Part shown: piece by piece, positions 9,362 through 44,738 of the stretch
Layout of the letters: the number at the start of each line of letters is the position of its first letter
Numbering within the stretch: the stretch's first letter is position 1
Source of the DNA: a virus
Taxonomy: Duplodnaviria > Heunggongvirae > Uroviricota > Caudoviricetes
Length of the DNA: 64,000 nucleotides
IMG/VR virus record: IMGVR_UViG_3300028992_000036
Reading direction: 5' to 3' (one strand)
Notes under the pieces: generated by a model
Told to the model about the DNA's origin: nothing
What the model saw: the letters and a program-made list of their open reading frames with translations, nothing else
Database searches by the model: none
Position numbers and translations under genes: made by a program

Positions 9362-10618
9362 CTATCGAGAACCACCAAGAATAACACGGTTTTTGACTGG
9401 ATACCTACGATGTACTGGATAGCCCAATGCGTCTGCACTATGCTCAATGCCACCTGTCTTATCCATATCTCGTGTTCCAGGCTTGTAGATGACTTTTTCC
9501 AGTGAATCAATCAAATGCTTGCACTTCGGATCGATATACAACCGGATATCTCCAGATGCGGTCATCAGCATTCGGTTAACAGCATTAACACGATCCGCAA
9601 TTGGCGGGTGCTTTTTCGAATAATCGACACGTAAGAATCCCTTCTCTTTGAATATGTCGACGTCAGACTCCCCGCGAGCATGTTGGCGATAAGCACCTGC
9701 CGGATCTGGAAATACCGTTATCTGTGATTTCCAGCGCCAGAAGCGTCTCTCAAGCTCATCACAAACCTCTGCCGTGTTAGAGGAAAAGAGCACCAATTCA
9801 TCAATTGCCCATAGCTCACCATTTGGCTGAGGTTGCAAAATTACTGAAGACATCGGGTCAATGTTGAAGTCCTGCCCTACCCATATAGGCAACCGAGGGT
9901 TGAACTGAAGCGGTTTTACATGCACGTTACGATCGAACGGGTAGTAAACGCGCCCGGACATGTTCTCAAAGCTCGCCAGGTACTCCTGAGCGAACGATTT
10001 CGGGTCCATATCGTTCTTAGCAGCTTCAATTTCCGCCGTAGGCACAAACGGAGAATCGGCAGTTACAAACTGCCAGCTCTTCCACTGTCCCTTTCTTTGC
10101 AGCTCTACGTTCTGGCCTATAGTCCACAGTTTGTGAAATTCCGAGAAACCTTTTGGCGTACCAATGATAAGTGCACCGCCGCGTGTCGATGAAAGAGTAG
10201 GTCGTAACACCTTGTACCAGGTGTCAGCCTTCATATCCTGAAATTCATCAAGCACTACAAAATGCAACGCTACGCCGCGCAGAGTGTCAGGCTTATCAGC
10301 ACCTTTGAGGGCGATCTCCGAACCGTTCTTCAACACGATTGTCATCGTGGTGTCGTTCTTTTTCCTAACCCACTTACGAGGCAGAACTTCCTGTAGATCG
10401 TCCCACAAAATCTGGCGAGCCATCTGGTAAGTAGGAGCGACATACCAGACCCTTTGCTTTTTTTCCTTTGCCGCCGCACGAATAATAGTGGAGATCGACA
10501 ACCGGGATTTTCCCCAGCGTCGACCAGCACAAACAACTTTAAATCGATGCGGAGACTGGAAGACTTTCATCTGTCCAGAATGCAGTTGCACAAGACTGAG
10601 CGAGGACGGGATTGCCAT
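9362..10618 (-). CDS. terminase large subunit
   Basis: Walker A VVCAGRRWGKS, Walker B HFVVLDEF, C-terminal nuclease-type region; start overlaps small-subunit stop (TAATG). Confidence 0.8.
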   Translation of the reverse strand: MAIPSSLSLVQLHSGQMKVFQSPHRFKVVCAGRRWGKSRLSISTIIRAAAKEKKQRVWYVAPTYQMARQILWDDLQEVLPRKWVRKKNDTTMTIVLKNGSEIALKGADKPDTLRGVALHFVVLDEFQDMKADTWYKVLRPTLSSTRGGALIIGTPKGFSEFHKLWTIGQNVELQRKGQWKSWQFVTADSPFVPTAEIEAAKNDMDPKSFAQEYLASFENMSGRVYYPFDRNVHVKPLQFNPRLPIWVGQDFNIDPMSSVILQPQPNGELWAIDELVLFSSNTAEVCDELERRFWRWKSQITVFPDPAGAYRQHARGESDVDIFKEKGFLRVDYSKKHPPIADRVNAVNRMLMTASGDIRLYIDPKCKHLIDSLEKVIYKPGTRDMDKTGGIEHSADALGYPVHRRYPVKNRVILGGSR

Positions 10619-11250
10619 TATTCGTCCTCCCCTTCACTTCCATCATCTGTCGCATCAAATTCGCTTAGAGCTTCTTCTTCCAACGTCTCAAGCAATTCGT
10701 CATCGATGATTTCAGGCTCGTCGTCTTCCTGACGTAATTTCGCCACCTGGGAAGGCGTAAGCTCACCAAATACCAGATTCGGAATTTCTTCCTCGTCATT
10801 TTCCGCATGATCCATGCCCAATGCTTTGGACGAAACTTCAAAGCATTTTGCAAGGGTATTACTGGCTCTCTGTAAGCTCTTGAGAGAATCCTCAATCGCC
10901 CCTAAAGGCTTACCCTCACGTTTGGCCGTAGTGACTTCGACCATCACCATCTGCCCCAACGCATACGCCCAGCCGTCATAACGTGTACGACGTTCTTCTA
11001 TCTTTTCCGCACGGGCTTTAGCGCGAAGCTCTGCGTCAGATTTAAGAGACTCACGAACCATCTTCCCAACAGAGTCCGCGCCTTTCTCTAATCCTCGCTT
11101 TTTGAAATGTCTGGAGAGTGTTTCACGACGAATGCCGTACTCTTCCTCCAGCTTTGAGAGTGTATATTCGCCTGACGTCCATTTGGCTTCAGCTTCGGCC
11201 CACTCCGCTGGTGTCAGGCGAGTTTTTACCTCGTCTTTTTCGACCGTCAT
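10618..11250 (-). CDS. terminase small subunit, putative
   Basis: 210 aa, N-terminal HTH-like region, acidic C-terminus, directly upstream of and coupled to the large subunit. Confidence 0.5.
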   Translation of the reverse strand: MTVEKDEVKTRLTPAEWAEAEAKWTSGEYTLSKLEEEYGIRRETLSRHFKKRGLEKGADSVGKMVRESLKSDAELRAKARAEKIEERRTRYDGWAYALGQMVMVEVTTAKREGKPLGAIEDSLKSLQRASNTLAKCFEVSSKALGMDHAENDEEEIPNLVFGELTPSQVAKLRQEDDEPEIIDDELLETLEEEALSEFDATDDGSEGEDE

Positions 11251-11366
11251 AGATCCCTCTAAAACACACAGAGCGCGTCCATGCGCTCTAAAACAACTTG
11301 TTTACTGCATTTTCTAACCAACTTGTTTTCTGGGTTGTTTAATTAGGTCTGGGCATGTCTTATTAA

Positions 11367-11446: not shown

Positions 11447-11713
11447 TTACATCACCAGTAACTTCGCTTTGGCTCGACCTAAAGTGGTTAACCCAAGAGT
11501 TCGGCGGTGATAGCGATTGTCACTGCGTTGGCGCGTATGCCCTTTCTCCACAAGCCCCTTTTTTATCAGAGCGCGAATTGAGAACTGGATACTTTGCTTG
11601 GTTGTCTTGTACGGCAAAACTTCAAGCAATTCGTCCAGATCAAGTAGATAACCTCGCTCATAACCGAGATTGAGCGTTTTGATGATGTCCTTTTGTTTAT
11701 CGGTTAACGTCAT
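11447..11713 (-). CDS. small winged-helix DNA-binding protein, putative regulator
   Basis: 88 aa; AAGGA RBS 8 nt upstream; helix-turn-helix-like segment; basic C-terminus. Confidence 0.4.
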   Translation of the reverse strand: MTLTDKQKDIIKTLNLGYERGYLLDLDELLEVLPYKTTKQSIQFSIRALIKKGLVEKGHTRQRSDNRYHRRTLGLTTLGRAKAKLLVM

Positions 11714-12613: not shown

Positions 12614-13275
12614 GAATGGACCTCATCGTGACTACCATTGTGATATTCCACCTTCACGCGTTCTTTGTAGTGCTTGGTGATCTGCATATCCGGGCGCAGC
12701 GCGTTCTTCAGGTCTTCGTGAGTCGTCGCCACCATTACCGTCGCACCAACCTTTCGAGCGGCACGCTGGAGGTTAGACGCCACAACCTGAGCGGTTACAC
12801 GGTCGAGAACAGCGCCGAACTCGTCAGCAGCCCACACTTTAGCGCCTGACTCAATCAGTTTGGCAATCTTGAGACGATATTTCTGGCCGTCTGACATTTC
12901 AGAAGGCTTGCGAACAAACAGATATGCATCGTTCAGACCAGCCATAGATAACAACCCAAGCGCATCACTGGTCGTTTTGCCCAACTGATCGATGACGTTA
13001 ACCTCATTATCGAAGGTAAAATCATCGATGGAGGCTACAGACAGCCCTTCATCCTTCATCTGTCGTTGCAACTCGCGCAGCACAACGGATTTGCCGGAAC
13101 CGGATTGGCCGGTGATGTACACCACATCGCCCTGCTTCACTTCCAGCTCCAGATTGTCGTAAAGCGTCCACTCTTTTTCGTCCAGGCCAAGCCCGAACGA
13201 CTCAGCGATTTCCAACGTGCGCGTGGTTTTATTTACGCGTGTCTGAAACGATACGTTGATGATGTATTTGCTCAT
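12610..13275 (-). CDS. stand-alone ABC-type ATPase
   Basis: Walker A GQSGSGKS, signature-like SDGQKYRL, Walker B VWAADEFG, H-loop TTHED; no transmembrane domain. Confidence 0.6.
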   Translation of the reverse strand: MSKYIINVSFQTRVNKTTRTLEIAESFGLGLDEKEWTLYDNLELEVKQGDVVYITGQSGSGKSVVLRELQRQMKDEGLSVASIDDFTFDNEVNVIDQLGKTTSDALGLLSMAGLNDAYLFVRKPSEMSDGQKYRLKIAKLIESGAKVWAADEFGAVLDRVTAQVVASNLQRAARKVGATVMVATTHEDLKNALRPDMQITKHYKERVKVEYHNGSHDEVHS

Positions 13276-13940
13276 GCAGCCATCTCCCCGGAAGAGATCT
13301 TCTCCGCATATGCCACAAATGCGTCTACCCCGCTTTCTCCCGTCATTTCTTCCATGTGGGCAAGCAAATCACCAACAACAATGGCAGAGCCAGCAGGGAG
13401 CGTTTTAAAGCCCAATACGTCGACAACACGTACTTCTTCCGCTGCAACTTCACGACTGATCTCGGTGTGTTCATCCTTCTGTCGTTTAGTTTCTTCGCCA
13501 AGATCGATAACTAGCGAGTCGGTGTCCATTTCTTCTGTCATACTGCCAACGAGAACATTCAACTCACGCTCTTCAAAGCCGAAAACCTCGATATCGTCCA
13601 GAACAAGCGACTCAAGCTCTTTCTGTAGCTTAATTGCATCGTAATCAATGCTGGCAAGTCGGTTATCTTCAAGGCGCTTCGCACGAACCTCGTCATCACT
13701 GAGATCATCGCGAACAATAACCGGTACGCGCTCAAGTCCAGCAAAAATTGCAGCCTCACGGCGGCCGTGGCCAGTAATAATTACGTCGTTCTTATCGACC
13801 GTAATTGGCTGGTCAAATCCGCGCTTTTTAATGGCTGCGGCTAGATCTCGGATCTGCTGTTCATCATGCTTTTTGGCATTCATCTCATAGGGAATAAGAT
13901 CTGCCGGGTCGCGATATACGATTTCAAACTTTTTGGTCAT
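13272..13940 (-). CDS. ParB-like nuclease domain protein
   Basis: ParB/Srx N-terminal motif ITGHGRREAA; AAGGAG RBS before ATG 13940; coupled to neighbours. Confidence 0.6.
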   Translation of the reverse strand: MTKKFEIVYRDPADLIPYEMNAKKHDEQQIRDLAAAIKKRGFDQPITVDKNDVIITGHGRREAAIFAGLERVPVIVRDDLSDDEVRAKRLEDNRLASIDYDAIKLQKELESLVLDDIEVFGFEERELNVLVGSMTEEMDTDSLVIDLGEETKRQKDEHTEISREVAAEEVRVVDVLGFKTLPAGSAIVVGDLLAHMEEMTGESGVDAFVAYAEKISSGEMAA

Positions 13941-14620
13941 TACATACGCTCCTTGTAGTAGTCGACCAGCCACACCAGAGCCTCACCAGCGTTCTCCATT
14001 TCATTACCGGTGTTAATAGCCTGCTCTTTGATGATGTTTTTTATGGTTTCTGCAACACGATCTGACGCATCGAAAGTTACTTTGAAGCGCATGGTCTGAT
14101 GTTCCGCACCCACACGTTCGGTTTTCTCTCGTTTGTCGGTATCGACAGGCTCATCACTACCACGAGACAACGCCTCCAGTGCTTCAAGGTCGATTGCCGC
14201 CTCTTTTGCTAAAACCATCGAGATTTCGTCGTCATACGGGGCGATTTCAGACAGTTGATAGTCAAGTTCTGACTGAATTTCTTCAATGAAGCGTTGCAAT
14301 GCGATTTGGTCGTCTTCACCGTATCGCTCGTTGTCCACCAGTGACATCTGTTTAGCTACGACATCGCTAATTTTGCCCACAGAAAGCACCGGAACCGTTG
14401 AAATTCCTTGCTCAATAGCAGCACGCCAGCGATGTTCGCCGCCGAGGATTTCAAAAAATCCATCTTCAAGTTCACGAGCCAAAATTGGCTTAAAAAAGCC
14501 CAATTTTTCGATAGAACCTTTCAGTTTTTCAAAATTCTGCGCACCAACCGAATTGGTGTTCCAGGTATTCGGGCGAAGGTTGGCAACATCAACCTGCAAA
14601 ATCGTGATTTTTACATCCAT
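13940..14620 (-). CDS. ParB-like nuclease domain protein
   Basis: Motif LGGEHRWRAA; start ambiguous (ATG 14620 or GTG 14638). Confidence 0.6.
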   Translation of the reverse strand: MDVKITILQVDVANLRPNTWNTNSVGAQNFEKLKGSIEKLGFFKPILARELEDGFFEILGGEHRWRAAIEQGISTVPVLSVGKISDVVAKQMSLVDNERYGEDDQIALQRFIEEIQSELDYQLSEIAPYDDEISMVLAKEAAIDLEALEALSRGSDEPVDTDKREKTERVGAEHQTMRFKVTFDASDRVAETIKNIIKEQAINTGNEMENAGEALVWLVDYYKERM

Positions 14621-14702
14621 TTTATTGCTACAATCCACTAAGTAATCACTTACTTATTATAATAGCCAAATAACATACAAAAGGCACTAAGGAAAGAGGT
14701 TT

Positions 14703-16264: not shown

Positions 16265-16543
16265 ATGAGCGAAAAGAAAACAACTTATTGTCAGGTAGCA
16301 TTGTCTGATAAGGCCAATGACAAACTTGGAAAGTTTCAAGTGAAACTAAAAGAAAAAAATATCAAAATGTCTAAGGCTGAAGTCATAAATACCATTCTGG
16401 AACAATTGACAATGGCCGACTTTGACAAGGTTATATCTTCTGTCGGGGCTTCCGCTAAGACTCGTGAGAAAATCATGCGTATCTATGAGAACTCTAATAT
16501 GACAAAGGAAGATCTCGAAACGCTATTAAGCAGATTAAAATAA
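16265..16543 (+). CDS. small putative DNA-binding/regulatory protein
   Basis: 92 aa; begins 3 nt after helicase stop. Confidence 0.35.
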   Translation: MSEKKTTYCQVALSDKANDKLGKFQVKLKEKNIKMSKAEVINTILEQLTMADFDKVISSVGASAKTREKIMRIYENSNMTKEDLETLLSRLK

Positions 16544-17038: not shown

Positions 17039-17563
17039 ATGACAACCAAAGATATTACCTACGGTATCCAAGCTGAACTCTGGCCGCGAGATTACACTAA
17101 CGTTGAAAAACTACTGATGTTCTGGCGCAGAGAACAAATTCCTGTAAGGGTCACTCTCGAAGATGGCCAGGCGTTTTGCATGTACGTTTATGGCCTCATG
17201 CCATCTCGTAACAAAGTTGACCTTTGCCCAGCCCCTTTTGACAAAGAAAATCGTATAAGGCTCCCACTTGAACGCATTAGTACAATTGAATCAGGTGTGG
17301 TTGACAGTATCGCTCACGATTTCAAAGGTCGACTAACAGTTCACCCTGATTATGTCGATAATCGGCCATCACGCCGCGATTTTTTTGCAATTTGCAACCA
17401 AGCCTACAAAGCAAACAAATCTATAAGGGTGTACATGGCGGATGGCCGTGAAATTGAGGGGGTGTCAGCAGGCGCAGATGCTTGTCAGGTTACACTACGT
17501 GTCGAGAACGGTAGAAAAATAGTTGTTTTGTTCGATTGGGTTGAACGAATTTTGCCTTTTTGA
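17039..17563 (+). CDS. hypothetical protein
   Basis: 174-aa ORF from ATG 17039, directly after the lipoprotein stop. Confidence 0.4.
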   Translation: MTTKDITYGIQAELWPRDYTNVEKLLMFWRREQIPVRVTLEDGQAFCMYVYGLMPSRNKVDLCPAPFDKENRIRLPLERISTIESGVVDSIAHDFKGRLTVHPDYVDNRPSRRDFFAICNQAYKANKSIRVYMADGREIEGVSAGADACQVTLRVENGRKIVVLFDWVERILPF

Positions 17564-19931: not shown

Positions 19932-20414
19932 TTACACGCCATCAAGGATGTGGATGCGGTTGCTTGCGTATACATTCAGCATAAAGTTAGCGCAAAACAG
20001 TTTCCATGTATCAACGCCAGCGGTATACGTAATGTTTTTGCATTTAATTGCATTGTTGGCGATCCGCATCCCCTGCGATACTGCTTCATCGTCGGAAAAT
20101 TTGAACGACGATTGAGTTTTAATCCAGACAGAAATCTGCGTAGCGAACTCAATCAGCTTGGACTGGCAGAATCGCCCGGAGCGCACCGGAAAGACGAACG
20201 TTCCGAATCCAGAATTTACCACATATGCTTTCTCAAATACCCGCGAGTAACGACGATTGCCAATGATGTCGCGTGCAATAATGCATTTTTCTTGTGCTGA
20301 CAGTTCTACCGTCTCATTGTCGCGCCATGCACCAAGTACTCGTTTTTCAATGTCAGAGAACGTTACAGCGATATTGCCATGTGCGGGTGCGTTTACAGTA
20401 GCGATAAAATTCAT
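19932..20414 (-). CDS. hypothetical early protein
   Basis: 160 aa; AAGGA RBS; motif A upstream at 20435-20467. Confidence 0.5.
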   Translation of the reverse strand: MNFIATVNAPAHGNIAVTFSDIEKRVLGAWRDNETVELSAQEKCIIARDIIGNRRYSRVFEKAYVVNSGFGTFVFPVRSGRFCQSKLIEFATQISVWIKTQSSFKFSDDEAVSQGMRIANNAIKCKNITYTAGVDTWKLFCANFMLNVYASNRIHILDGV

Positions 20415-20764
20415 GATTAATTCCTTATCGTAAATAACAAATTGTTTTCTTGTTGGTGTTAATTATCGTTGTACGAATAAGGCGTCAAAGTGGAAAGTTG
20501 CGGTAGCCGGACGGGAACAGGTGGGTTTGTCGGTTGCCTGGAGGTAAGAGGTTGGTGTTATTAGCCTGAGGGAAACAGGATGGTCATTTAAGACCACCAA
20601 TGCTGGTGGCCTTAATAATTATCGCCCGATTACGCTAAGGATCTTTTCCTCAACTGATTTGTTGTTGCGACTAAACTGCCTTGCGTATCTGATGACAGAA
20701 GAGGCGTTTTGCTTTCTGACCATCTCGGCTCTTTCCTTCAGGCGTTTCTTGAAATCGCCCATAT

Positions 20765-21139
20765 TTACCACCAGGCGCAGAAGGTCAGTCTGTTATTGTG
20801 AAAGTCGTGGTTCTTAATCAGATCTTCCACAAGCTCTTTCAACTGCCCCACATCATGCCAGTAACCTTCGTCGTACTCCTGACTGCCGAAGAAAAAACCT
20901 TCCCGAGTAGGCAAGTACTCTTCGCAATTGCTTTCGTTTATGTGCATCAAATGAGCTTTCAGAAGACAAATGTCATTCATCGTTAATTCTAAAAGCTCAC
21001 AATTTTCGACTTCACCTACGTTGCGCTCCATCCACCCAACGAGCGCATTGAACTTACGGAAGTAAGCAACCTGCTTTCTGGATGCCTCGTTATTCAGATC
21101 GTTTTTAGGCTGTGTCTCGATATAGATATCAAGTCCCAT
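20765..21139 (-). CDS. small acidic hypothetical early protein
   Basis: ATG 21139 with AAGGAAA RBS; motif A core at 21196-21210. Confidence 0.5.
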   Translation of the reverse strand: MGLDIYIETQPKNDLNNEASRKQVAYFRKFNALVGWMERNVGEVENCELLELTMNDICLLKAHLMHINESNCEEYLPTREGFFFGSQEYDEGYWHDVGQLKELVEDLIKNHDFHNNRLTFCAWW

Positions 21140-21256
21140 GATGGTTTCCTTATTAACTTGCTTCAGTAAAATCATTTTCACAAATCAGATAAGGCAGAAA
21201 ACAAATTGTTATCGGGCTTAATAAAATGGCGCGGTTTACGCGCCATTTAAAGAGGA

Positions 21257-21778: not shown

Positions 21779-22090
21779 TCAGGCTATTGCCATCACTGAT
21801 GCTCTCTGAATTTCTTGCTGGGCCACGCGGTTAACTTCCATCAAAGCCAGTTCGAGCTGATGTTCCGGCCACATTCTTTGAAATGCCATCCAGCCTTTTC
21901 CACGCTGGCGACGAACATTCATTACATAACGAGTAAAGGTGTTTTTATCGAAAGACACCGCTGTTTCACGGAACAGACGAATAGAGGTTCCATTGGCAAC
22001 GATGTCCAGCAAAGTTAATTGAGCAACCAGCGCAGGCTTCTCTTTTCTCTTCTGGTCTTTGTCCAGACCAAGAACCAATGATTTTTTCAT
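21779..22090 (-). CDS. small basic hypothetical early protein
   Basis: ATG 22090 with GGAG RBS; motif A at 22102-22135. Confidence 0.45.
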   Translation of the reverse strand: MKKSLVLGLDKDQKRKEKPALVAQLTLLDIVANGTSIRLFRETAVSFDKNTFTRYVMNVRRQRGKGWMAFQRMWPEHQLELALMEVNRVAQQEIQRASVMAIA

Positions 22091-22244
22091 CACAACTCCG
22101 TAAACAACTTGTTTTCTCAATGGCGTAAATAATACCAGTAAGAAAACGGCTACAAAGCATATTGATCAGGTGTATGAGCGATATGCAGGTTCTTCCCTGC
22201 GGCTACAGATGAAGTTAAGCCAGCATTGCTGGCTTTGGTTGGGT

Positions 22245-22574
22245 TTACTCGAATACTTCAAGAAACTCCTGAACGTCCCAATGCTGGACGAGGTGAAGAT
22301 AGACCTTAGAAATCACGTCATTTTCGCTATCGCATGTGAAGTAGTACTTCTGGCTGCGGTTGTATGTGTCCACACAAAATTCGCTCATATCCATAAAGTC
22401 AGCATCTTCACCCATGTCGCAAATCATCAAAGCAGGTGCATCATCACGAGTCATCAGCTCCAGCACCCATCTTGAATTAATCAGAGTGGAAGACCAACCT
22501 TCCAGCTCATAGAACTGGTCAAACTCTTTTTGAGTTAATTTCTTGATTTGGTTGATGTCGATATTTGCAAACAT
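22245..22574 (-). CDS. small highly acidic hypothetical early protein
   Basis: ATG 22574 with AAGGA RBS; motif A directly upstream (22586-22620); D/E-rich composition. Confidence 0.5.
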   Translation of the reverse strand: MFANIDINQIKKLTQKEFDQFYELEGWSSTLINSRWVLELMTRDDAPALMICDMGEDADFMDMSEFCVDTYNRSQKYYFTCDSENDVISKVYLHLVQHWDVQEFLEVFE

Positions 22575-22929
22575 AAAGCAATCCTTAAACAACATGTTTT
22601 CTTGATGGTGTTATTATCGCAATAACGCACAGGCGAAAAAGGATTTTATTCCGGTGAATATGGTTTTGGCAGTGAGTTTTCAGGTTCAGTACCGAGTATA
22701 CTTTTTACATTATTCTGATTTAGTGGCCGAAGGTGGCTGGTGGGCAGAATAATCCTCTCCCCGAAAACCTACTGAAATCGATTGTGACCCGTTGGCTGTC
22801 TGGCACAATTACGCTGTAGCTGGGCATTCAGAGGGAATCCAGCGGTAAGCAAGTCCGCCTACGTGAGCGCCTCTCTTCTTCCCGCACATTACAGGTGGGT
22901 AGCCGCAACTCTCCCTCTCGCTATACCGG

Positions 22930-24535: not shown

Positions 24536-24735
24536 TTATCCCTCACAATTTCCAATTTTCCAGACCATCGTCTATTTCAGCGTCAGGGTGGAATTGTACC
24601 GCATCAAATCCTACATCGAGCACCTTTCGAATGTTCTTGATGGTTAGACTGGCCCCCTGAATCTCCAGACAACCAGTATCACTTAAATAAGTGATAGTCT
24701 TAATACTAGTTTTTAGACTAGTCATTGGAGAACAG

Positions 24736-25101
24736 ATGATTGATGTCTTAGGGCCGGAGAAACGCAGACGGCGTACCACACAGGAAAAGATCGCAATTGT
24801 TCAGCAGAGCTTTGAACCGGGGATGACGGTCTCCCTCGTTGCCCGGCAACATGGTGTAGCAGCCAGCCAGTTATTTCTCTGGCGTAAGCAATACCAGGAA
24901 GGAAGTCTTACTGCTGTCGCCGCCGGAGAACAGGTTGTTCCTGCCTCTGAACTTGCTGCCGCCATGAAGCAGATTAAAGAACTCCAGCGCCTGCTCGGCA
25001 AGAAAACGATGGAAAATGAACTCCTCAAAGAAGCCGTTGAATATGGACGGGCAAAAAAGTGGATAGCGCACGCGCCCTTATTGCCCGGGGATGGGGAGTA
25101 A
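24736..25101 (+). CDS. insC: IS2 transposase OrfA (InsC)
   Basis: [32 protein letters not shown]... recognised as IS2 InsC. Confidence 0.85.
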
Positions 25102-25964
25102 GCTTAGTCAGCCGTTGTCTCCGGGTGTCGCGTGCGCAGTTGCACGTCATTCTCAGACGAACCGATGACTGGATGGATGGCCGCCGCAGTCGTCACACTG
25201 ATGATACGGATGTGCTTCTCCGTATACACCATGTTATCGGAGAGCTGCCCACGTATGGTTATCGTCGGGTATGGGCGCTGCTTCGCAGACAGGCAGAACT
25301 TGATGGTATGCCTGCGATCAATGCCAAACGTGTTTACCGGATCATGCGCCAGAATGCGCTGTTGCTTGAGCGAAAACCTGCTGTACCGCCATCGAAACGG
25401 GCACATACAGGCAGAGTGGCCGTGAAAGAAAGCAATCAGCGATGGTGCTCTGACGGGTTCGAGTTCTGCTGTGATAACGGAGAGAGACTGCGTGTCACGT
25501 TCGCGCTGGACTGCTGTGATCGTGAGGCACTGCACTGGGCGGTGACTACCGGCGGCTTCAACAGTGAAACAGTACAGGACGTCATGCTGGGAGCGGTGGA
25601 ACGCCGCTTCGGCAACGATCTTCCGTCGTCTCCAGTGGAATGGCTGACGGATAATGGTTCATGCTACCGGGCTAATGAAACACGCCAGTTCGCCCGGATG
25701 TTGGGACTTGAACCGAAGAACACGGCGGTGCGGAGTCCGGAGAGTAACGGAATAGCAGAGAGCTTCGTGAAAACGATAAAGCGTGACTACATCAGTATCA
25801 TGCCCAAACCAGACGGGTTAACGGCAGCAAAGAACCTTACAGAGGCGTTCGAGCATTATAACGAATGGCATCCGCATAGTGCGCTGGGTTATCGCTCGCC
25901 ACGGGAATATCTGCGGCAGCGGGCTTGTAATGGGTTAAGTGATAACAGATGTCTGGAAATATAG
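25059..25964 (+). CDS. insD: IS2 transposase OrfB (InsD), DDE catalytic domain
   Basis: GTG start; [23 protein letters not shown]... recognised as IS2 InsD; overlaps insC in the -1 frame. Confidence 0.85.
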
Positions 25965-26165
25965 GGGCAAATCCAATGGTTTGCTATGTGACACCGTAAT
26001 CACGCAGCTTTTCTTCCCTCCCCTGACTCCCCCATACTCCGTTTCTGTACCCAATTGAGTCCGAGATTGTATGGTGCTCGAAACAGATATTTGGTAGACA
26101 CTCAGAGTCATGCTGTGTAACGAGGGTAGGGCTACTAACTGTCGTCTTATACAATTTGGTGAGTT

Positions 26166-26414
26166 TCAGCATTTTACCACCCCGTTCGGAAACAACTCAT
26201 TCGCCGTAGTTGATATAACCTCCCAATTAACGCCGACATCAGCGTTATGGCATTGTCTGATTTTTTGCATCACCTGTACGCATTGTTCATCAGTGAGATC
26301 TGTCCTTACTTCAGCAATATCTTCTTTGTGCCACATAACCATGAGTAAGGGTTCGTCTTCTGGATAGTTTTTCAGTTTCTCGATGATTTCTTTTGCTGTT
26401 CCAAACATCTTCAT
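26166..26414 (-). CDS. small acidic hypothetical protein with two upstream motif-A copies
   Basis: 82 aa; GGAG RBS; motif A at 26419-26453 and 26467-26486 links it to the phage-like early genes. Confidence 0.45.
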   Translation of the reverse strand: MKMFGTAKEIIEKLKNYPEDEPLLMVMWHKEDIAEVRTDLTDEQCVQVMQKIRQCHNADVGVNWEVISTTANELFPNGVVKC

Positions 26415-26520
26415 CTCCTAAACAATTTGTTTTCTTATATGACTTATTATCTCAATCAACAAAAGGTAGAAAACAAATTGTTTTAGAGTTTGTTAAAGTC
26501 AGAAGGGGTTGTGTCTATAT

Positions 26521-26546
26521 GAAAATGCCCGGCGTGTTGCCGGGCA
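26521..26546 (-). terminator. metG intrinsic terminator
   Basis: GCCCGGC-aacac-GCCGGGC hairpin followed by ATTTT on the minus strand, ~25 nt after the metG stop. Confidence 0.5.
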
Positions 26547-26567
26547 TTGCGAAGAGAGGTTGTTTAA

Positions 26568-28601: not shown

Positions 28602-28758
28602 AGTAGGCATTACTTCTTTGTAGTGAAAAGGGGCTTGATAGTAACAAAATGGCCTTATGTCTGCCATGTGATAACAGCATTTCTCATAAATGATTAAATG
28701 TCGTAGCTGGAGTACACTACAAGGCGACAATTGCGCAAATTAAAATAAAGGAGACGGG

Positions 28759-29995: not shown

Positions 29996-30104
29996 GAGCG
30001 CCAGCGGCGAACATATGAGCTTCGGAAATACTAGACATTCTTAACTCCGTTGTTTTCTAGTTGTGGTTATTTTCACAAATAAGAAAAGATAGAAAACAAT
30101 TTAT

Positions 30105-30135
30105 TTAAGGCCACAACTTATGGCCTTTATTTATT
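30105..30135. terminator. bidirectional hairpin terminator candidate
   Basis: GGCCA-caactta-TGGCC hairpin flanked by T-rich runs on both strands. Confidence 0.4.
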
Positions 30136-31303: not shown

Positions 31304-32989
31304 TCATTTAACGCGTTTGAAAACGTATACGCTGACTGTGATCCCTGTGTCTTCAAACTCGTTGGTAAACGACTTCCCTCTGGCATAAACGTAATTATCC
31401 ATCGTCATCCAGTCCAGTATTGGCGCAGTGCCCGGCAATACTGCTACAAGACGCCCGCCGACTTTCAGATGCCCCAGCGCAGCCAGCGTGTGCTCTCTAT
31501 GACGACCAAGCGAGTACGGCGGGTTCATAACGATTTTGTCGAACTGATAACCTGCGTTGTCCTCAGACCACTTTATGAAGTCGCAGCAAATCGTGTTCGT
31601 ATACCCTTTTCCACGCAGGATATCAGCGAAGAGAGGTGCGATTTCTATGCAGGTAACATCTTCCAGATCGGCGTCAATATAGGCCAGAAGATCCCCACGT
31701 CCGGCTTGAGGCTCCAACAGCTTCTCACCAGGCTTCAATTCAGTGGCTCTTGCAACGTACTCAGCAATCAAGCGTGGGGTAGGGTAGAACTGGTGTGATT
31801 TTGTATCCGGTATTAAACCGGTAGCCACAATCGTATTTAGCGTATGGCCGATGTCATACGGGAACTGCCAGTGCTTTTTCTCCTGCACGCCGCCAATGAA
31901 GCTCAGTGTGCGCTCAAGCTCTTCCACCTGCGACTTCTGGAGAGCTGAATCAGAGAAGTACCATACACCTTTGTCTTTGCTCAATCGCCCGTCACGAAGC
32001 GCAGTGCGAACCGGCACGGAGATCGTCTTCTGGATTAAACCGAACTGCTTTGGTGCCCGTGTTTTTGGCGCAGTTCGGCATGGCGCGGGGATTGCAGCAG
32101 GCATACTGTAAGCCAGCACCTCATTCAACTTCCAGGCCACGTCAGGATGTATTTCAAAGTGAACGTTGCCGTTCTTGAACATCTTCACGCGCATCAGATT
32201 TCCATCGACGTTCATCCAGTCACCGGTCTGGCAGTCGTTTGCCCGATACGCAGCTGATAGCACCTCAGCAGTGCGGTTGATGGTAATAAATTCTTTGTGC
32301 GCGAAGAAATGAAGCAAGACACGCAGATCGTCGATGTAGTCCTCTTTGCGATAGTTCACGCTAACGCTGTCCCGCCAGAAATCAGAAATGCAGTCAGCGA
32401 TTATCAGCCGCTCGCTGAAACCATTTGTCTTATTTGTCTTGTGCACAGGACTCAGCGCCTTAAACAAGCCATACACGCGCTCAGAGAGATATTTGTGCCT
32501 GTCATTCAGCAAATTAAGCATCGTGGGTATGACCGTTTCTGCTTTGAACTCCGGTACACCAACGAACTCTTTAACCTTCATCTGGTAGCCGGTTCTGTCA
32601 GTTTTGATGACTTCCTGTTTGCCCTCTATAAACTGCTCGCGCCACTCATCTCGACGGGAAGCTGGCATGATCAGCAAAACGTTAGTCATGTCCGTGACCT
32701 TCCTCCAGTACTCGGCCCAAATATTCTGTTTCACCCATTCCAGATCGACTTTATCCAACCAACCTCGATTTAAACGCGAGCGATCTTCATCTGGTCGATG
32801 GTTTAGTTTCAGCAGGCGATTAATCATGTTGTGGCGTTCGTCGCCATAAACGAAGTTGTGAACCTGATACATGAAGGCGATCTCTTTCTCGCACTCGGCC
32901 ACAATTTCGTGGATAACGTTCATTTCCTGACGATAATCGATAGCAGTGTTTGAGCTGGCATCGTCGATGATGGAAAGGGCTGTATTCAT
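31304..32989 (-). CDS. orphan N6-adenine DNA methyltransferase with large N-terminal domain of unknown function
   Basis: C-terminal FYPTP, motif I EPQAGRGDL, motif IV NPPY; ~400-aa N-terminal extension; motif A at 33001-33035. Confidence 0.65.
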   Translation of the reverse strand: MNTALSIIDDASSNTAIDYRQEMNVIHEIVAECEKEIAFMYQVHNFVYGDERHNMINRLLKLNHRPDEDRSRLNRGWLDKVDLEWVKQNIWAEYWRKVTDMTNVLLIMPASRRDEWREQFIEGKQEVIKTDRTGYQMKVKEFVGVPEFKAETVIPTMLNLLNDRHKYLSERVYGLFKALSPVHKTNKTNGFSERLIIADCISDFWRDSVSVNYRKEDYIDDLRVLLHFFAHKEFITINRTAEVLSAAYRANDCQTGDWMNVDGNLMRVKMFKNGNVHFEIHPDVAWKLNEVLAYSMPAAIPAPCRTAPKTRAPKQFGLIQKTISVPVRTALRDGRLSKDKGVWYFSDSALQKSQVEELERTLSFIGGVQEKKHWQFPYDIGHTLNTIVATGLIPDTKSHQFYPTPRLIAEYVARATELKPGEKLLEPQAGRGDLLAYIDADLEDVTCIEIAPLFADILRGKGYTNTICCDFIKWSEDNAGYQFDKIVMNPPYSLGRHREHTLAALGHLKVGGRLVAVLPGTAPILDWMTMDNYVYARGKSFTNEFEDTGITVSVYVFKRVK

Positions 32990-33130
32990 AATTACACCAT
33001 TAAATAATTTGTTTTCTGATTGGTGTAATTATCGCAAACTTGAAAAGGCATAAAAGCTGCATTCATAGGCGTTACAGCAGATTTAAGGCGTAAAAATGGG
33101 GGCTGTCGCCCCCTGTCGACTGGTGCTGTA

Positions 33131-33697
33131 TTAGAGTGCGTATTGCGTTTTGTGCGGCTGCTTATTCAAGTCATGGCGATGCGTGAGCTCCCGCATCATG
33201 TCTTCAAGGCGACTCTTTGTGTCGTCGAGCTGGTCGGCCATTGCACCTAAAAGCTGGCGAACGGCCATCGGATCGTCGCTGTTTAGTGATGGCATTTTAG
33301 AACCTGCTTTAGAAGACATAAGGTTGATTGCAGACATCAACATCGTTAGAGAGGATTTAAGCCCGGCAATTTCACGATCTTTGCTGGCAATAATCGTCTC
33401 ACTTTTGTTACCGTCATCAGTTTCTTGAGTCTCGCTCACCATATCCAAAGTCGCTTGCAACTTATCAGCTCTCTCTTTTTCAGCAAGGTAATGAACACCG
33501 AAATGGTGTGCCAAAGCTACAATCTGAGTTGGCTCTTCAAAGGTGGAATTAAAATTAAGTATTGTAAACAGTCTCTCAAATATGGAAACGTCTTCTATTC
33601 CTCGAAGAATGGCTAACATTTTGACCAGTTCATTAGCATCCATTTCTTCGAATAAGGCGTTTTGTTCATCAGCTATCGCTTTGCATTTCTTGCACAT
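33131..33697 (-). CDS. hypothetical protein
   Basis: 188 aa; motif A at 33714-33750. Confidence 0.4.
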   Translation of the reverse strand: MCKKCKAIADEQNALFEEMDANELVKMLAILRGIEDVSIFERLFTILNFNSTFEEPTQIVALAHHFGVHYLAEKERADKLQATLDMVSETQETDDGNKSETIIASKDREIAGLKSSLTMLMSAINLMSSKAGSKMPSLNSDDPMAVRQLLGAMADQLDDTKSRLEDMMRELTHRHDLNKQPHKTQYAL

Positions 33698-33994
33698 GTG
33701 TTTTTCCTAATGCTTAAACAAGTTGTTTTCTTATTGTCTTTATTGTGATGTGGCATAAAAGGGGAGCAAGCTAAACGTAAAGGTGCAAACTCTCTATTTC
33801 GGTCAACGAAACACAAGGGCCATTTGGCCCTTGTCATTAACACTTTGCTTTACGAACTAACGGATAAGCGAAGTAGATCGCCAAACCAATGAGGACGCCA
33901 TCAGAAATGACAGACATCATCTTTCCCGTAAAATCCACCAACACCGCCATCACCAGAAGAGCAATGACGATCACAAGCCGGAATCTCTCAAGCA

Positions 33995-34420
33995 TTAGAG
34001 ATAAGCATCCAGTGACAACTGAAGCGCCTGGGCGATCTTTTTCAGTGCCTGCTCTTCTTGTTCACCAATGCCGTCCTGATCGGCAATATCAAGGCACAGA
34101 CACAGAACATCGACCGCCTCTGGAGTACCCGCAATATCAGACAGCTCACGAATAGCCTGTGCATTAGCAGAACGAGGGGACGCTTCGTAACGAGCACGGA
34201 TATTGGCGCTCATTTGGGCAATTTCACCAGCAAACGGAGAAAACGCAGGCAGAGCTGCAATTGTCTTCTCAAGAATGGCAATTTCTTTTGCGTCACATGT
34301 GCCGTCGGCATAGGAGATCATGTACGCGCCCCACACGGTGGCCTCAACCGCATCACGGTTCTCCATTTTTTTGACTTCGATAACAGCTTTACGAGTTTTC
34401 TTTTTGAAGAAACCTAACAT
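33995..34420 (-). CDS. TerB-like domain protein, putative
   Basis: 141 aa helical protein resembling TerB-like modules; motif A at 34443-34475. Weak assignment. Confidence 0.35.
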   Translation of the reverse strand: MLGFFKKKTRKAVIEVKKMENRDAVEATVWGAYMISYADGTCDAKEIAILEKTIAALPAFSPFAGEIAQMSANIRARYEASPRSANAQAIRELSDIAGTPEAVDVLCLCLDIADQDGIGEQEEQALKKIAQALQLSLDAYL

Positions 34421-34513
34421 GTGCTTTCCTTTTATTATTTGTCAAAACAAGTTGTTTTCTAATTACATAAATTGCTTACGCAGAGATGGTCAATGCATAT
34501 GCACTAACAGCCG

Positions 34514-43490: not shown

Positions 43491-44633
43491 TTACAGGTCT
43501 GCAAACTGGCTTAGAGAAGCCTTATCCACGGTAGAATCGATCTGACCTACCAGATATGTGCTTTGCTCTGCCTCTTGTGGTGCAATTTGCAGTGTGTCGG
43601 TTAACAACCACTTGTTCATCCAGACCAGCGGGTCAGTGGTAACTTCTGGAAATAAAGCCTTCAGGCCAAGACGATTCATAGCCAGATTGGTGCGGTATTT
43701 TACATAGGTTTTGAGAATATCCGCGTTTAAACCAATCATCGAACCGTCTTTGAAGAGATAGTCTGCCCAGTTCATTTCTTGTTCGGCGACTGATTTCATG
43801 GTGTCGTAAATGACGTTTTCTTCATCAGCAGCAATCTCTTTCCACAATAAACCTTCGCGACCGGTACGCATGAAGCGGATCATGCGTTCAGTTCCTTCGC
43901 AATGCAGAGCTTCATCACGGGCAATAAAGCGCATAATTTTGGTGTTACCCTCAAGCAACTTCCGTTCACCAAAGGCAAACGTACATGCAAAACTTACGTA
44001 GAAACGGATCGCCTCAAGCGCATTAATGGACACCAACGTGCGGAAAAGCTGACGATGCAAAGGGTATGGCTCCCAGCCATATTCATTTACGTACAGACGC
44101 TCAAATTCCTTCTCACCTAACGACTGGCGCTCGCAGGTCATCCCATAAAGCCTGTCATATTCAGCAGAGATACTGATCGCTCGGTTGATGATTTCTTCAT
44201 CCGTAACAATACCGTCAAAAACAATGCTCGGATCGTCCACCATGCCACGAATAATGTGGGTGTAGCTGCGGCTATGGATAGTCTCAGAGAAAGACCACGT
44301 TTCAACCCACGTTTCCAGTTCAGGAATAGAGATAAGCGGCAGCAGCGTTGCATTTGGGCTACGTCCCTGAACTGAATCGAGTAACGTTTGATAACGGAGA
44401 TTGCTCAGAAAAATGTGACGTTCGTGGTCCCGCAGCTTCGTGTTGAAGTCGATACGATCGCTCGAAATATCAACTTCTTCCGGCCGCCAGAAGAAAGACA
44501 ATTGACGTTCAATCAACTTTTCAAAATCACGGTATTTTTGCTGATCGTAACGTGCCACGTTGACAGATTGTCCGAGGAACATAGGCTCTTTGGTTGCATC
44601 ATTAGCACCCAAACGGAACGTTGAATATGACAT
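43491..44633 (-). CDS. nrdB: ribonucleotide reductase class Ia beta subunit
   Basis: Strong similarity to E. coli NrdB pattern ([40 protein letters not shown]-terminal ...QIDS.VD); ATG 44633 with AAGGA RBS. Confidence 0.85.
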
Positions 44634-44738
44634 GTGTTTTTCCTTTTTCTTTTTTATGTGTTTAAACAAGTTGTTATCTTATTTGTTTAAACAAGGCTTA
44701 CAAATCAAAGAGAAGGTGGGGATACACCCCACCATATG

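What the first reader, a model, noticed from the sequence alone, without database searches (positions are those of the whole stretch)
22586..22620. Conserved palindromic promoter/operator (motif A) upstream of at least ten genes
A ~35-bp motif with the perfect inverted-repeat core AAACAAnTTGTTT, usually as TAAACAAnTTGTTTTCTnnTGGTGTnAnTATCG, sits 15-60 nt upstream of start codons at 11291-11335, 20435-20467, 21196-21210, 22102-22135, 22586-22620, 26419-26453, 26467-26486, 30047-30110, 33001-33035, 33714-33750, 34443-34475 and 44661-44696. On the coding strand it reads as a -10-like GATAAT (sometimes TGnGATAAT) followed by the palindrome and the RBS. This looks like one regulon: a shared early promoter with an operator for a dedicated repressor or activator.
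Basis: seen in the sequence. Interest (0 to 1): 0.75.

Follow-up and report, generated by a model that had tools for sequence, protein, structure and literature searches.

The report
Repeated promoter-operator cassette of phage-plasmid
A 17-20 bp palindromic DNA site (AGAAAACAAnTTGTTTA) sits at a fixed place in about a dozen promoters of an SSU5-type phage-plasmid and is most likely the binding site of a still-unidentified repressor that keeps many of the element's own genes silent while it lives as a plasmid.

Summary
The window is an SSU5/Cyrano-type phage-plasmid (97% identical to Escherichia phage Cyrano). The core AAACAAnTTGTTT occurs 6 times exactly (0 expected). A weight matrix finds 13 strong sites and one conserved half-site, all between 11 and 45 kb and all outside genes. 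There are none in 130 kb of unrelated enterobacterial DNA. The same motif occurs 16-18 times in Cyrano, Salmonella phage SSU5 and a divergent Klebsiella relative, and stays conserved where the flanking intergenic DNA has diverged.

The recurring anatomy is: upstream-gene terminator, optional second palindrome, CCTTTT, TGnGATAAT (extended -10, no -35), 10-11 nt, AGAAAACAAnTTGTTTA, Shine-Dalgarno, ATG. Paired sites lie exactly 51 bp apart, flanking the promoter, or 25 bp apart. As RNA the motif has no stable fold and shows no compensatory changes.

In published RNA-seq of the Cyrano lysogen, motif-linked genes sit at background except parA. The best reading is a DNA operator for an element-encoded repressor that blocks RNA polymerase.

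The regulator is not identified. A FljA-family protein and an adjacent small protein track motif presence. This is a new member of a known kind and apparently undescribed.

The parts
22584..22603 (-). Operator O1 of the finding's own site (AAGAAAACATGTTGTTTAAG). It lies upstream of the 109-aa gene 22245..22574 (CYRAN_105-like).
   Evidence: Weight-matrix score 28.0. The ATG follows 9 nt after the site.
22613..22621 (-). Extended -10 element TGCGATAAT, 10 nt upstream of AGAAAAC.
   Evidence: The same arrangement recurs at 26446-26454, 33028-33036, 22129-22137 (TGGTATTAT) and 30069-30077 (TGTGAAAAT), and without the TG at 20462-20467.
11288..11307 (-). Proximal operator in the leader of the terminase small-subunit gene (10618..11250).
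   Evidence: Score 27.3.
11313..11332 (-). Distal operator in the terS leader, 25 bp centre to centre from the proximal one. It is preceded by a further half-site, TTAAACAA.
   Evidence: The doublet is conserved in Cyrano and SSU5.
11261..11289 (-). Hairpin AGAGCGC-6-GCGCTCT plus a T-run, lying between the operators and the terS Shine-Dalgarno sequence.
   Evidence: The whole leader folds at -22.9 kcal/mol.
20432..20451 (-). O1 upstream of the 160-aa gene 19932..20414 (CYRAN_111-like). The -10 GATAAT is at 20462-20467.
21195..21214 (+). O2-type copy (reverse orientation) between the terminator hairpin 21224-21248 and the promoter of gene 20765..21181. The O1 partner has been lost here.
   Evidence: The SSU5 orthologue still has the 51-bp pair.
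22099..22118 (-). O1 upstream of the 104-aa gene 21779..22093 (CYRAN_106-like). The extended -10 TGGTATTAT lies 11 nt upstream.
   Evidence: Conserved in SSU5.
26417..26436 (-). O1 upstream of the 82-aa gene 26166..26414 (CYRAN_101-like).
   Evidence: Score 30.2.
26467..26486 (+). O2 partner of 26417-26436, 51 bp centre to centre, just downstream of the MetRS terminator hairpin (26522-26548).
30040..30059 (-). Half-site O1 (AGAAAACAAcGGAGttaag). Its right half is replaced by the Shine-Dalgarno sequence. The gene behind it is truncated to 15 codons by an IS1-associated deletion.
   Evidence: The same half-site is present in SSU5 and L010.
30090..30109 (+). O2 partner of the half-site, 51 bp away, abutting hairpin 30107-30127.
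32999..33018 (-). O1 upstream of the DUF4942 methylase-like gene 31304..32989. The extended -10 is TGCGATAAT.
   Evidence: Present in SSU5 and the Klebsiella relative, lost in Cyrano.
33713..33732 (-). O1 upstream of the 188-aa gene 33131..33697 (CYRAN_87-like). The -10-like hexamer is CACAAT.
   Evidence: Score 30.9.
34442..34461 (-). O1 upstream of the TerB-domain gene 33995..34420.
44661..44680 (-). O1 (AAGATAACAACTTGTTTAAA), with an adjacent half-site TTTAAACAA, upstream of nrdB (43491..44633).
16265..16543 (+). Candidate regulator: a 92-aa protein (CYRAN_117-like) translationally coupled to the UvsW-like helicase, in the only counter-oriented operon.
   Evidence: Expressed at 12 times background in the Cyrano lysogen. 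Its N-terminal strand differs between motif-positive and motif-negative relatives. The AF2 model is compatible with a ribbon-helix-helix fold, but the fold search was inconclusive.
17045..17563 (+). Candidate regulator: a FljA-family protein (PF03614) with a C-terminal Hfq/LSM-like stretch.
   Evidence: Present in every motif-positive lineage examined, and absent or unrecognisable in both motif-negative ones.
11447..11713 (-). Disfavoured.
   Evidence: The Pfam LexA_DNA_bind match is only E 0.07. The helix TTKQSxQFSxRAL is invariant in motif-negative relatives. Expression is at background in the lysogen.

Best explanation
Motif A is a double-stranded-DNA operator built into a reiterated promoter cassette of SSU5-type phage-plasmids.

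Each cassette is a sigma-70 promoter that relies on an extended -10 (TGnGATAAT) and has no -35. The asymmetric palindrome AGAAAACAAnTTGTTTA starts 10-11 bp downstream of the -10. That places its centre at about +14, over the start site and the first transcribed bases. Some promoters carry a second copy 51 bp upstream, centred at about -38 over the -35 region.

A dimeric (or higher-order) repressor encoded by the element binds these sites, cooperatively where two are present. It excludes RNA polymerase and so holds about 16-18 transcription units off in the plasmid-prophage state. These units are small accessory genes, the helicase operon, nrdB, a TerB-like operon, a methylase, partly parA, and the leader of the terminase operon.

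Shown here: the motif, its enrichment, its fixed geometry, its conservation, and the silence of the linked genes in a lysogen.

Inferred: the transcription start, protein binding, the direction of regulation and the identity of the protein. The best candidates are the two neighbours in the counter-oriented UvsW operon, a 92-aa possibly ribbon-helix-helix protein and a FljA-family protein.
For: Enrichment and specificity:
- Searches show strong enrichment and no copies in control DNA.

Geometry:
- In 71 non-redundant cassettes from the window, Cyrano, SSU5 and IMG/VR relatives, 29 have a -10-like hexamer exactly 10-11 nt upstream and 22 carry the TG extension. Distance to the ATG ranges from 0 to 48 nt.
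- All 21 pairs of sites within 60 bp of each other are 51 bp (15 pairs) or 25 bp (6 pairs) apart. In the 51-bp pairs the AGAAAAC arms always face the promoter.
- Both halves are conserved to the same consensus. There are 29 one-sided deviations and 0 compensatory ones.

Against an RNA element:
- As RNA the motif folds no better than shuffled sequence, at -1.7 to -4 kcal/mol with z from -0.2 to +1.3.
- No Rfam family matches.

Conservation:
- The motif is the conserved block in orthologous upstream regions whose flanks have diverged: helicase, parA, C85, C87, C90, C106 and C111.
- Sites are gained and lost between lineages, as expected of transcription-factor sites.

Expression:
- In LF82 lysogen RNA-seq (PMC9928086, supplementary file 2) the median is 9.8.
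- Motif-linked genes read 5.7-25.5, despite near-consensus extended -10 elements. parA reads 49.8.
Against: - No transcription start, footprint or binding data exist.
- Several copies (34442, 44661, the terS doublet) have no recognisable -10 at the standard distance.
- Low expression in the lysogen is equally expected if these promoters need an activator.
- SSU5 lacks the CI-like repressor and integrase yet keeps 18 sites. The binder therefore cannot be the annotated lysogeny repressor, and the sites may serve the lytic programme rather than lysogeny.
- No candidate protein has a confirmed DNA-binding fold.
- The correlation of candidates with motif presence rests on only two motif-negative relatives, which may not be independent.
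Confidence: 0.6

Rival explanations
1. The motif is an RNA-level operator. It is read in the 5' untranslated region, next to the Shine-Dalgarno sequence, by the element's FljA-family (Sm/Hfq-like) protein. That protein would block translation and destabilise the mRNA, as Salmonella FljA does with fliC mRNA.
For: - A full-length FljA-family protein is encoded in the window (PF03614, E 1e-80, with weak Hfq/LSM matches).
- It is found in every motif-positive lineage and in neither motif-negative one.
- FljA-type repressors are reported to act post-transcriptionally (PMC2652032).
- The motif abuts the Shine-Dalgarno sequence in several genes.
- The Salmonella/Citrobacter fliC leader has CAAGTTG at a comparable place just upstream of its Shine-Dalgarno sequence.
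Against: - Two-fold symmetry has no meaning for a single-stranded RNA site.
- The hairpin is not stable and shows no covariation.
- Spacing is fixed to the -10 and not to the ATG.
- Partner sites lie upstream of the promoter, beyond the preceding terminator, at exactly 51 bp.
- The fliC leaders score -2.4 (Salmonella) and -6 or lower (E. coli) against the motif matrix.
Confidence: 0.12
2. The motif marks a special promoter class that is switched on, not off, by an element-encoded factor made after induction. This would be a middle or delayed-early promoter element, functionally like T4 MotA boxes or P1 Lpa boxes.
For: - The promoters lack a -35 and are not called by a sigma-70 scan.
- The linked genes are silent in the lysogen.
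- The motif persists in SSU5, which lacks the CI-like repressor.
- The O2 position at about -38 resembles a class II activator site.
- The terS leader carries the motif.
Against: - The main and most frequent site is downstream of the -10, at about +4 to +23, where activators rarely act.
- TGn extended -10 promoters normally work without activators.
- Most promoters have only the downstream site.
Confidence: 0.12
3. The sites are primarily dispersed partition (centromere-like) sites for the ParG-like ribbon-helix-helix protein encoded after parA. Silencing of the neighbouring promoters is a by-product. This would resemble the dispersed SopB sites of phage-plasmid N15 or the omega protein of pSM19035.
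For: - The parA promoter carries the motif in Cyrano, SSU5 and divergent Klebsiella relatives.
- The protein after parA has a ribbon-helix-helix-like sequence with a conserved strand, KSRTMSLED.
- Expression of the par operon is 5-9 times background in the lysogen.
- The only motif-like remnant in the Moellerella relative is upstream of parA.
- No array of repeats lies next to parA that could serve as a conventional centromere.
Against: - The strand of this protein is nearly unchanged in Moellerella, which lacks the motif elsewhere.
- The Moellerella remnant scores only 16.8 in an AT-rich genome, so it may be chance.
- The strict placement relative to the -10 argues for promoter control as the selected function.
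- The protein family is confined to these elements, so no independent context could be checked.
Confidence: 0.1
4. The motif is the binding site of a host transcription factor specific to Enterobacteriaceae, used by the element to sense host state.
For: - The motif is present in elements from Escherichia, Salmonella, Klebsiella and relatives, but absent from the Moellerella (Morganellaceae) element.
- The right half, TGTTTA, resembles a PhoP half-site (from memory, not tested).
Against: - There are 0 sites in 130 kb of enterobacterial chromosome.
- No known E. coli regulator consensus that I could recall has this half-site spacing.
- L137, a motif-negative relative, was not assigned to a host, so it gives no information on this point.
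Confidence: 0.04

Closest known systems
C1 repressor and its dispersed operators in phage-plasmid P1 (from established knowledge, not re-derived here)
   Same: Both are plasmid-prophages in which one short operator is scattered over the genome. The operators sit at many promoters for replication, accessory and other lytic functions. Some occur as pairs that allow cooperative binding.
   Different: The P1 operator is an asymmetric 17-mer of unrelated sequence. Here the site is a 13-bp palindrome with asymmetric flanks, placed at a fixed +14/-38 geometry. No C1 homologue was looked for, and the binder is unknown.
KorB/KorA global regulons of IncP plasmids and the omega regulon of pSM19035
   Same: A short palindrome (KorB's is 13 bp with a central base) is repeated at a dozen or more promoters of an extrachromosomal element, including partition genes. 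The element's own small regulators repress from these sites.
   Different: The sequence is unrelated. The two ParB_N-domain proteins of this element are conserved in motif-negative relatives, and no link to the motif was found.
PeSL (promoter-early/stem-loop) cassettes of T4-type phages
   Same: A reiterated unit of terminator hairpin plus promoter flanks many small ORFs in a hyperplastic region. The window's 20-27 kb region is built this way. The cassette even includes a recurrent ribosome-binding region, AAGGAAAnCACATG.
   Different: The T4 cassettes carry no palindromic operator and are read by host polymerase without a dedicated repressor. Similarity to the T4 early-promoter consensus was not tested.
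FljA repressor and the fliC leader in Salmonella
   Same: A FljA-family protein is encoded here. The FljA target also lies between the promoter and the Shine-Dalgarno sequence. The Salmonella/Citrobacter fliC leader shares the heptamer CAAGTTG with the motif.
   Different: FljA is reported to act on mRNA. The fliC leader is not a motif-A site (score -2.4). The anatomy here points to double-stranded DNA.
Dispersed SopB centromere sites of phage-plasmid N15 (from established knowledge)
   Same: Inverted repeats are scattered in a plasmid-prophage genome at or near phage promoters.
   Different: N15 has four sites that match the F sopC repeat and a known binder. Here there are 16-18 sites locked to promoter geometry.

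Membership tests
Sigma-70 extended -10 promoter | TGn immediately upstream of a -10 hexamer with A at position 2 and T at position 6 | tested here: met
   Present at five window sites: 22584, 26417, 32999, 22099 and 30040. Present in 22 of 71 non-redundant cassettes. Other copies have only a weak -10-like hexamer or none.
Sigma-70 extended -10 promoter | Transcription starts 6-8 nt downstream of the -10 | not testable with these tools
   No 5'-end data are available. The published LF82 RNA-seq table gives per-gene counts only.
Canonical sigma-70 promoter | A -35 hexamer resembling TTGACA, 16-18 bp upstream of the -10 | tested here: not met
   The generic scan calls none of the motif-linked promoters. 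The -35 region instead reads gCCTTTT or is occupied by the second palindrome.
Palindromic repressor operator (dimeric DNA-binding protein) | Two-fold sequence symmetry with both halves held to the same consensus | tested here: met
   Positions 1-6 on either side of the centre are complementary in consensus. There are 29 one-sided deviations and 0 compensatory ones, and the central base is free.
Palindromic repressor operator (dimeric DNA-binding protein) | The site overlaps the region covered by RNA polymerase at the promoter | tested here: inconclusive
   If GATAAT is the -10, O1 covers about +4 to +23 and O2 about -47 to -28. The start site itself is inferred.
Palindromic repressor operator (dimeric DNA-binding protein) | A specific protein binds the site and lowers transcription | not testable with these tools
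   The only indirect evidence is that 11 of 12 motif-linked Cyrano genes are at or near background in the lysogen.
Structured regulatory RNA (riboswitch, leader, sRNA) | A stable conserved secondary structure with covariation, or a match to a curated family | tested here: not met
   No Rfam match in the whole window. Folding energy is no better than shuffles. No compensatory changes were seen.
P1 C1-operator network | An asymmetric 17-bp operator bound by a C1-family repressor | tested here: not met
   The motif is symmetric and 13 bp at its core. The presence of a C1 homologue was not tested.
KorB-type (ParB-family) global operator | A ParB-family protein with a DNA-binding domain that recognises the palindrome | tested here: inconclusive
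   Two ParB_N-domain proteins are encoded (window 13272..14638). They are 46-69% identical in motif-negative Moellerella and 56-66% in L137, so they do not track the motif.
FljA / fliC-leader control | A FljA-family protein is encoded by the element | tested here: met
   PF03614, E 1e-80, over residues 4-170 of the Cyrano protein. The window copy is 78% identical.
FljA / fliC-leader control | The target resembles the fliC leader bound by FljA | tested here: not met
   Salmonella and Citrobacter fliC leaders share only CAAGTTG with the motif. Matrix scores are -2.4 for Salmonella and -6 or lower for E. coli K-12. The exact FljA binding site could not be retrieved from the literature.
T4-type PeSL cassette | A stem-loop terminator directly followed by a promoter, repeated between small ORFs | tested here: met
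   Hairpins at 21224-21248, 26522-26548 and 30107-30127 lie directly upstream of the cassettes. Terminator T-tracts form the CCTTTT element in several relatives.

The most novel reading that the evidence does not exclude
SSU5-type phage-plasmids number about 800 plasmids in PLSDB and include pHCM2-like elements of Salmonella and many Klebsiella and E. coli plasmids. In this reading, the master switch that silences their lytic and accessory genes is not the annotated CI-like repressor. It is a protein from the counter-oriented UvsW operon: either the FljA-family Sm-like protein or its 92-aa neighbour. That protein binds the palindrome at about +14 and about -38 of some 18 promoters. If it is the FljA-like protein, it may act on the DNA and on the identical sequence at the 5' end of the mRNA. 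That would give the FljA family a general role as a mobile-element global regulator, beyond flagellar phase variation.
Probability: 0.2. Interest if true: 0.75.

Novelty: new member of a known kind. Interest (0 to 1): 0.5.

Why it matters
SSU5-type phage-plasmids are among the commonest plasmid-prophages of Enterobacteriaceae. One small par-linked protein alone hits 797 PLSDB plasmids. I found no published account of how they control their genes. A full-text search for the motif returned no papers, and searches on SSU5 regulation found only genome surveys and the LF82 study.

A defined operator with fixed geometry at about 16-18 promoters gives a direct experimental handle:
- It can be used as bait to identify the regulator.
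- It can be used as a reporter for induction.
- It can serve as a marker to annotate transcription units in hundreds of plasmids.

It also shows that the small ORFs of the variable region are individually promoter-, operator- and terminator-equipped modules. That helps explain how such regions are shuffled.

Tried and rejected
1. Pfam and PHROG scans of ten small motif-linked proteins, looking for an autoregulated DNA-binding protein. No DNA-binding domain was found; the only hit was a TerB domain.

2. It has only a weak LexA_DNA_bind match, and its recognition helix is invariant in motif-negative relatives. Rejected as best candidate.

3. The CI-like CYRAN_45. There is no motif nearby, and it is absent from SSU5, which keeps the motif. 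Rejected.

4. The ParG-like protein after parA. I looked for homologues in ordinary plasmids, to see whether the motif travels with the par module. The family occurs only in SSU5-like elements, so the test was uninformative.

5. Sequence search of three candidates against PDB: no hits.

6. AF2 model of the 92-aa candidate. Mean pLDDT is 82 and the secondary structure is compatible with ribbon-helix-helix. The Foldseek PDB search had no significant match; the best was E 3.9, to a ribbon-helix-helix antitoxin. Inconclusive.

7. Comparison with fliC leaders of E. coli, Salmonella and Citrobacter, to test the FljA idea. Only a shared heptamer was found.

8. The two key FljA papers could not be retrieved.

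9. IMG/VR loci L111, L112 and L032 have two or more motif-like sites. They share no proteins with Cyrano and were set aside as unrelated or chance.

10. The N-run at 56253-56289 was checked as a possible masked motif copy. It lies inside an IS3-family transposase gene and is unrelated.

11. Co-regulation of motif-linked genes across the ten LF82 RNA-seq conditions. I saw no clear common pattern by eye and did not analyse it statistically.
Full report
**What the window is.** Megablast of 20-28 kb hits Escherichia phage Cyrano (OV696614, the pLF82 phage-plasmid of E. coli LF82) at 97% identity, plus three similar E. coli elements. The terminase small subunit is 100% identical to Cyrano's, 88% to that of Salmonella phage SSU5 and 91% to Klebsiella phage-plasmids. 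The window is the reverse complement of the Cyrano record. Most genes are on the minus strand. It runs from head genes (1-11 kb), through an operon of ParB-like and ABC proteins, a counter-oriented UvsW operon, a variable region of small genes (19-35 kb), nucleotide-metabolism genes and RepA.

**Check of the observation.**
- AAACAAnTTGTTT occurs six times exactly, against none in 100 shuffles.
- The 17-mer with up to three mismatches gives 24 strand-matches against 1.5 expected.
- A 20-mer weight matrix built from 13 copies finds those 13 at score 20 or above and a few weaker ones. First-order Markov surrogates give 0.02. The matrix is circular for these 13 sites; the consensus searches are not.
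- All strong sites lie between 11.3 and 44.7 kb. The other 30 kb of the window has none.
- There are none in 50 kb of E. coli K-12 or in 80 kb of Salmonella, Citrobacter and Pantoea chromosome fetched for another purpose.

**Anatomy.** I oriented each copy so that it reads AGAAAACAAnTTGTTTA. Ten copies and one half-site then point the same way as the gene that follows, with the ATG 2-37 nt after the 20-mer. AGA on the left is conserved, while the mirror positions on the right are not. In six copies a GATAAT, TATTAT or GAAAAT hexamer lies 10-11 nt upstream, five of them with TG two bases before it. A generic sigma-70 scan does not call these promoters because there is no -35.

I collected 233 copies from the window, Cyrano, SSU5 and IMG/VR contigs found by an exact-pattern scan. 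Reduced to 71 cassettes less than 75% identical over 120 bp, the set gave these results:
- 29 have the -10-like hexamer at 10 or 11 nt, and 22 have the TG.
- The distance to the first ATG ranges from 0 to 48 nt.
- The reverse-oriented copies form a second class. Each lies upstream of a forward cassette, preceded by the previous gene's terminator hairpin and followed by CCTTTT.
- Across 16 sequences, all pairs of sites closer than 60 bp are either 51 bp (15 pairs) or 25 bp (6 pairs) apart centre to centre. In all 51-bp pairs the AGAAAAC arms face inward towards the promoter. Some of these pairs are orthologues of each other, but at least five different promoters are involved.

With the -10 at -12 to -7, the downstream site is centred near +14 and the upstream one near -38.

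The three reversed copies in the window are therefore upstream partner sites:
- 26467 pairs with 26417.
- 30090 pairs with the half-site at 30040. The half-site is conserved as such in SSU5 and L010; its right half is the Shine-Dalgarno sequence.
- 21195 has lost its partner, which SSU5 still has.

**The terminase leader.** Upstream of terS there are two full copies 25 bp apart plus a half-site. They are followed directly by a hairpin (AGAGCGC-6-GCGCTCT) and a T-run, then the Shine-Dalgarno sequence. There is no room for a promoter after the hairpin. Transcription of the structural operon must therefore pass both the operators and a terminator-like structure. The doublet is conserved in Cyrano and SSU5. 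The divergent Klebsiella relative has one copy plus a hairpin.

**DNA or RNA.**
- As RNA the motif folds at -1.7 to -4 kcal/mol, no better than shuffles. The neighbouring terminator hairpins are clearly stable.
- No Rfam family matches anywhere in the window.
- Over the six palindrome pairs in 71 cassettes there are 29 one-sided deviations and no compensatory ones.
- Spacing is fixed relative to the -10, not the start codon.
- The partner sites sit upstream of the promoter, beyond the preceding terminator, at a quantised distance.

These points favour a two-fold-symmetric protein on double-stranded DNA.

**Conservation.** Whole-genome scans give 16 strong sites in Cyrano, 18 in SSU5 and 17 in the first 100 kb of a divergent Klebsiella ozaenae plasmid (CP027615), whose proteins are 34-80% identical to Cyrano's. 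Outside the window, the motif also precedes parA, the replicative helicase and CYRAN_58. In alignments of orthologous upstream regions, the motif and the -10 are the conserved blocks while the flanks diverge. Individual sites are gained or lost: the C90 site is lost in Cyrano and the nrdB site is absent in the Klebsiella relative. Two more distant relatives with the same gene order have no motif:
- a Moellerella wisconsensis plasmid (0 strong sites in 108 kb, and a different repeated 22-mer);
- contig L137.

**Expression.** The LF82 study (PMC9928086) reports that Cyrano is induced 39-fold by ciprofloxacin. It also gives per-gene RNA-seq values for the lysogen (supplementary file 2). The median of normalised counts is 9.8. 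Motif-linked genes read as follows:

| Gene | Count |
|---|---|
| terS | 7.1 |
| helicase | 21.1 |
| CYRAN_58 | 5.7 |
| nrdB | 12.9 |
| CYRAN_85 | 7.0 |
| CYRAN_87 | 7.1 |
| CYRAN_101 | 7.5 |
| CYRAN_105 | 12.8 |
| CYRAN_106 | 12.2 |
| CYRAN_110 | 6.7 |
| CYRAN_111 | 25.5 |
| parA | 49.8 |

So promoters with near-consensus extended -10 elements are essentially off in the plasmid state. This fits repression, although dependence on an activator would give the same picture.

**Who binds.** This is not settled.
- *The CI-like CYRAN_45.* It is expressed in the lysogen, but has no motif nearby and is absent from SSU5, together with the integrase.
Its predicted recognition helix is the same in the two motif-negative relatives.
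- *The two ParB_N proteins.* They are also well conserved in the motif-negative relatives.
- *Proteins present in Cyrano, SSU5 and the Klebsiella relative but missing in Moellerella.* These include CYRAN_37 (a possible winged helix), CYRAN_62, several motif-linked small proteins and a FljA-family protein.
- *The FljA-family protein.* The match is PF03614, E 1e-80, with a C-terminal Hfq/LSM-like stretch. It is found in all motif-positive loci that cover the region. It is replaced by an unrecognisable 172-aa protein in L137.
- *Its neighbour, a 92-aa protein coupled to the UvsW helicase.* It is 12 times above background in the lysogen. Its N-terminal strand reads C-Q/H-V/L-x-L in motif-positive lineages and xQF in both negative ones. 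Its AF2 model (pLDDT 82) has an extended N-terminus and two helices, as in ribbon-helix-helix proteins. The fold search gave nothing significant.
- *The ParG-like protein after parA.* This is a further possibility. Its family is confined to these elements, so it could not be tested in another context.

Only two motif-negative genomes were available, and they may be related. These correlations are leads, not tests.

**The FljA lead.** FljA-type proteins are reported to block fliC translation (PMC2652032). I fetched fliC leaders. In Salmonella and Citrobacter, AACATCAAGTTGTAATTGATAAGGA lies just before the start codon and shares CAAGTTG with the motif. It mismatches two of the six invariant positions and scores -2.4 with the matrix. 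The E. coli K-12 leader is different again. The lead is therefore not supported by sequence. It remains open only through the phyletic pattern.

**Comparison with known systems.** In function, the closest are the dispersed C1 operators of phage-plasmid P1 and the KorA/KorB or omega regulons of plasmids. In construction, the variable region resembles the promoter/stem-loop cassettes of T4-type phages. None is a family match. The sequence, the symmetry and the fixed +14/-38 geometry differ, and the binder is unknown. A full-text search for the motif strings found no paper, and searches on SSU5 regulation found none that describes it.

**Verdict.** It is wrong or unproven as to the proposed regulator and the 'early' label. 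I file it as a new, apparently undescribed member of a familiar kind. It has practical value because it opens the unexplored regulation of a very common group of phage-plasmids.

Noticed in passing
window 17045-17563 (+): A full-length FljA-family protein (the 'repressor of phase-1 flagellin' family, PF03614, with a C-terminal Hfq/LSM-like stretch) is carried by the phage-plasmid. It is conserved in SSU5, Klebsiella and other relatives. It could silence host flagellin or serve the element's own regulation.
   Followed up: partly
window about 29870-30000: An IS1 left-end remnant (GGTGATGCTGCCAACTTACTGATTTAG...) lies exactly where the window lacks Cyrano genes CYRAN_93-98, including the S24/UmuD-like protein. 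The deletion leaves an orphan promoter-operator cassette with a 15-codon ORF (ATG near 30037).
   Followed up: partly
window 24646-25979: A complete IS2 copy (99% identical to IS2 in many phage and prophage records) is inserted in the variable region. It is absent from Cyrano.
   Followed up: no
window 56253-56289: A run of 37 N lies inside what reads as an IS3-family transposase gene. This IS is not present in Cyrano, and the Cyrano motif copy upstream of CYRAN_58 has no counterpart in the window.
   Followed up: partly
window 7840-7867, 37554, 51785; about 16 copies in Cyrano: A second dispersed motif, (GA)TAAGTAAGTAC, often followed by CTAT. It is found between genes of the structural, lysis, replication and other operons. 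It may mark another regulon or promoter class.
   Followed up: no
window about 50-53 kb (near RepA): The 16-mer ACCGCTGACAGCATAC is repeated 6-8 times. These are probably RepA iterons. Cyrano has a different repeat (AATGATTCCATACA), suggesting a different replicon specificity.
   Followed up: no
upstream of nrdB (44633), 33697, 34420; helicase in Cyrano: A recurrent translation-initiation region, AAGGAAA(A/G)CACATG, is shared by several motif-linked genes. The reiterated unit therefore extends from the promoter to the start codon.
   Followed up: no
L132-L134 (Moellerella wisconsensis plasmid NZ_CP093251): This syntenic relative lacks motif A. It has about 9 copies of TATAAATACTATGGGAGCTAGG, which begins with TATAAATA (the T4 late-promoter consensus, as I recall it). 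One copy is upstream of terS and two are divergent pairs. The regulatory vocabulary has been replaced in this lineage.
   Followed up: partly
window 22574-22595 / Cyrano CYRAN_105: The annotated start of CYRAN_105 is an ATG inside the operator (ACATGTT). The ATG at window 22574, preceded by AAGGA, is the more likely start.
   Followed up: no
window 14639-14702: The divergent region between the ParB-like gene and the UvsW operon holds a TATAAT and a 6-bp inverted repeat, AAGTAA-4-TTACTT. It is a possible separate operator for the counter-oriented operon that is expressed in the lysogen.
   Followed up: no
window 26568-28730 (-): A full-length methionyl-tRNA synthetase gene is carried by the element, annotated as MetRS in Cyrano. 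It ends in a strong bidirectional-looking terminator at 26522-26548.
   Followed up: no
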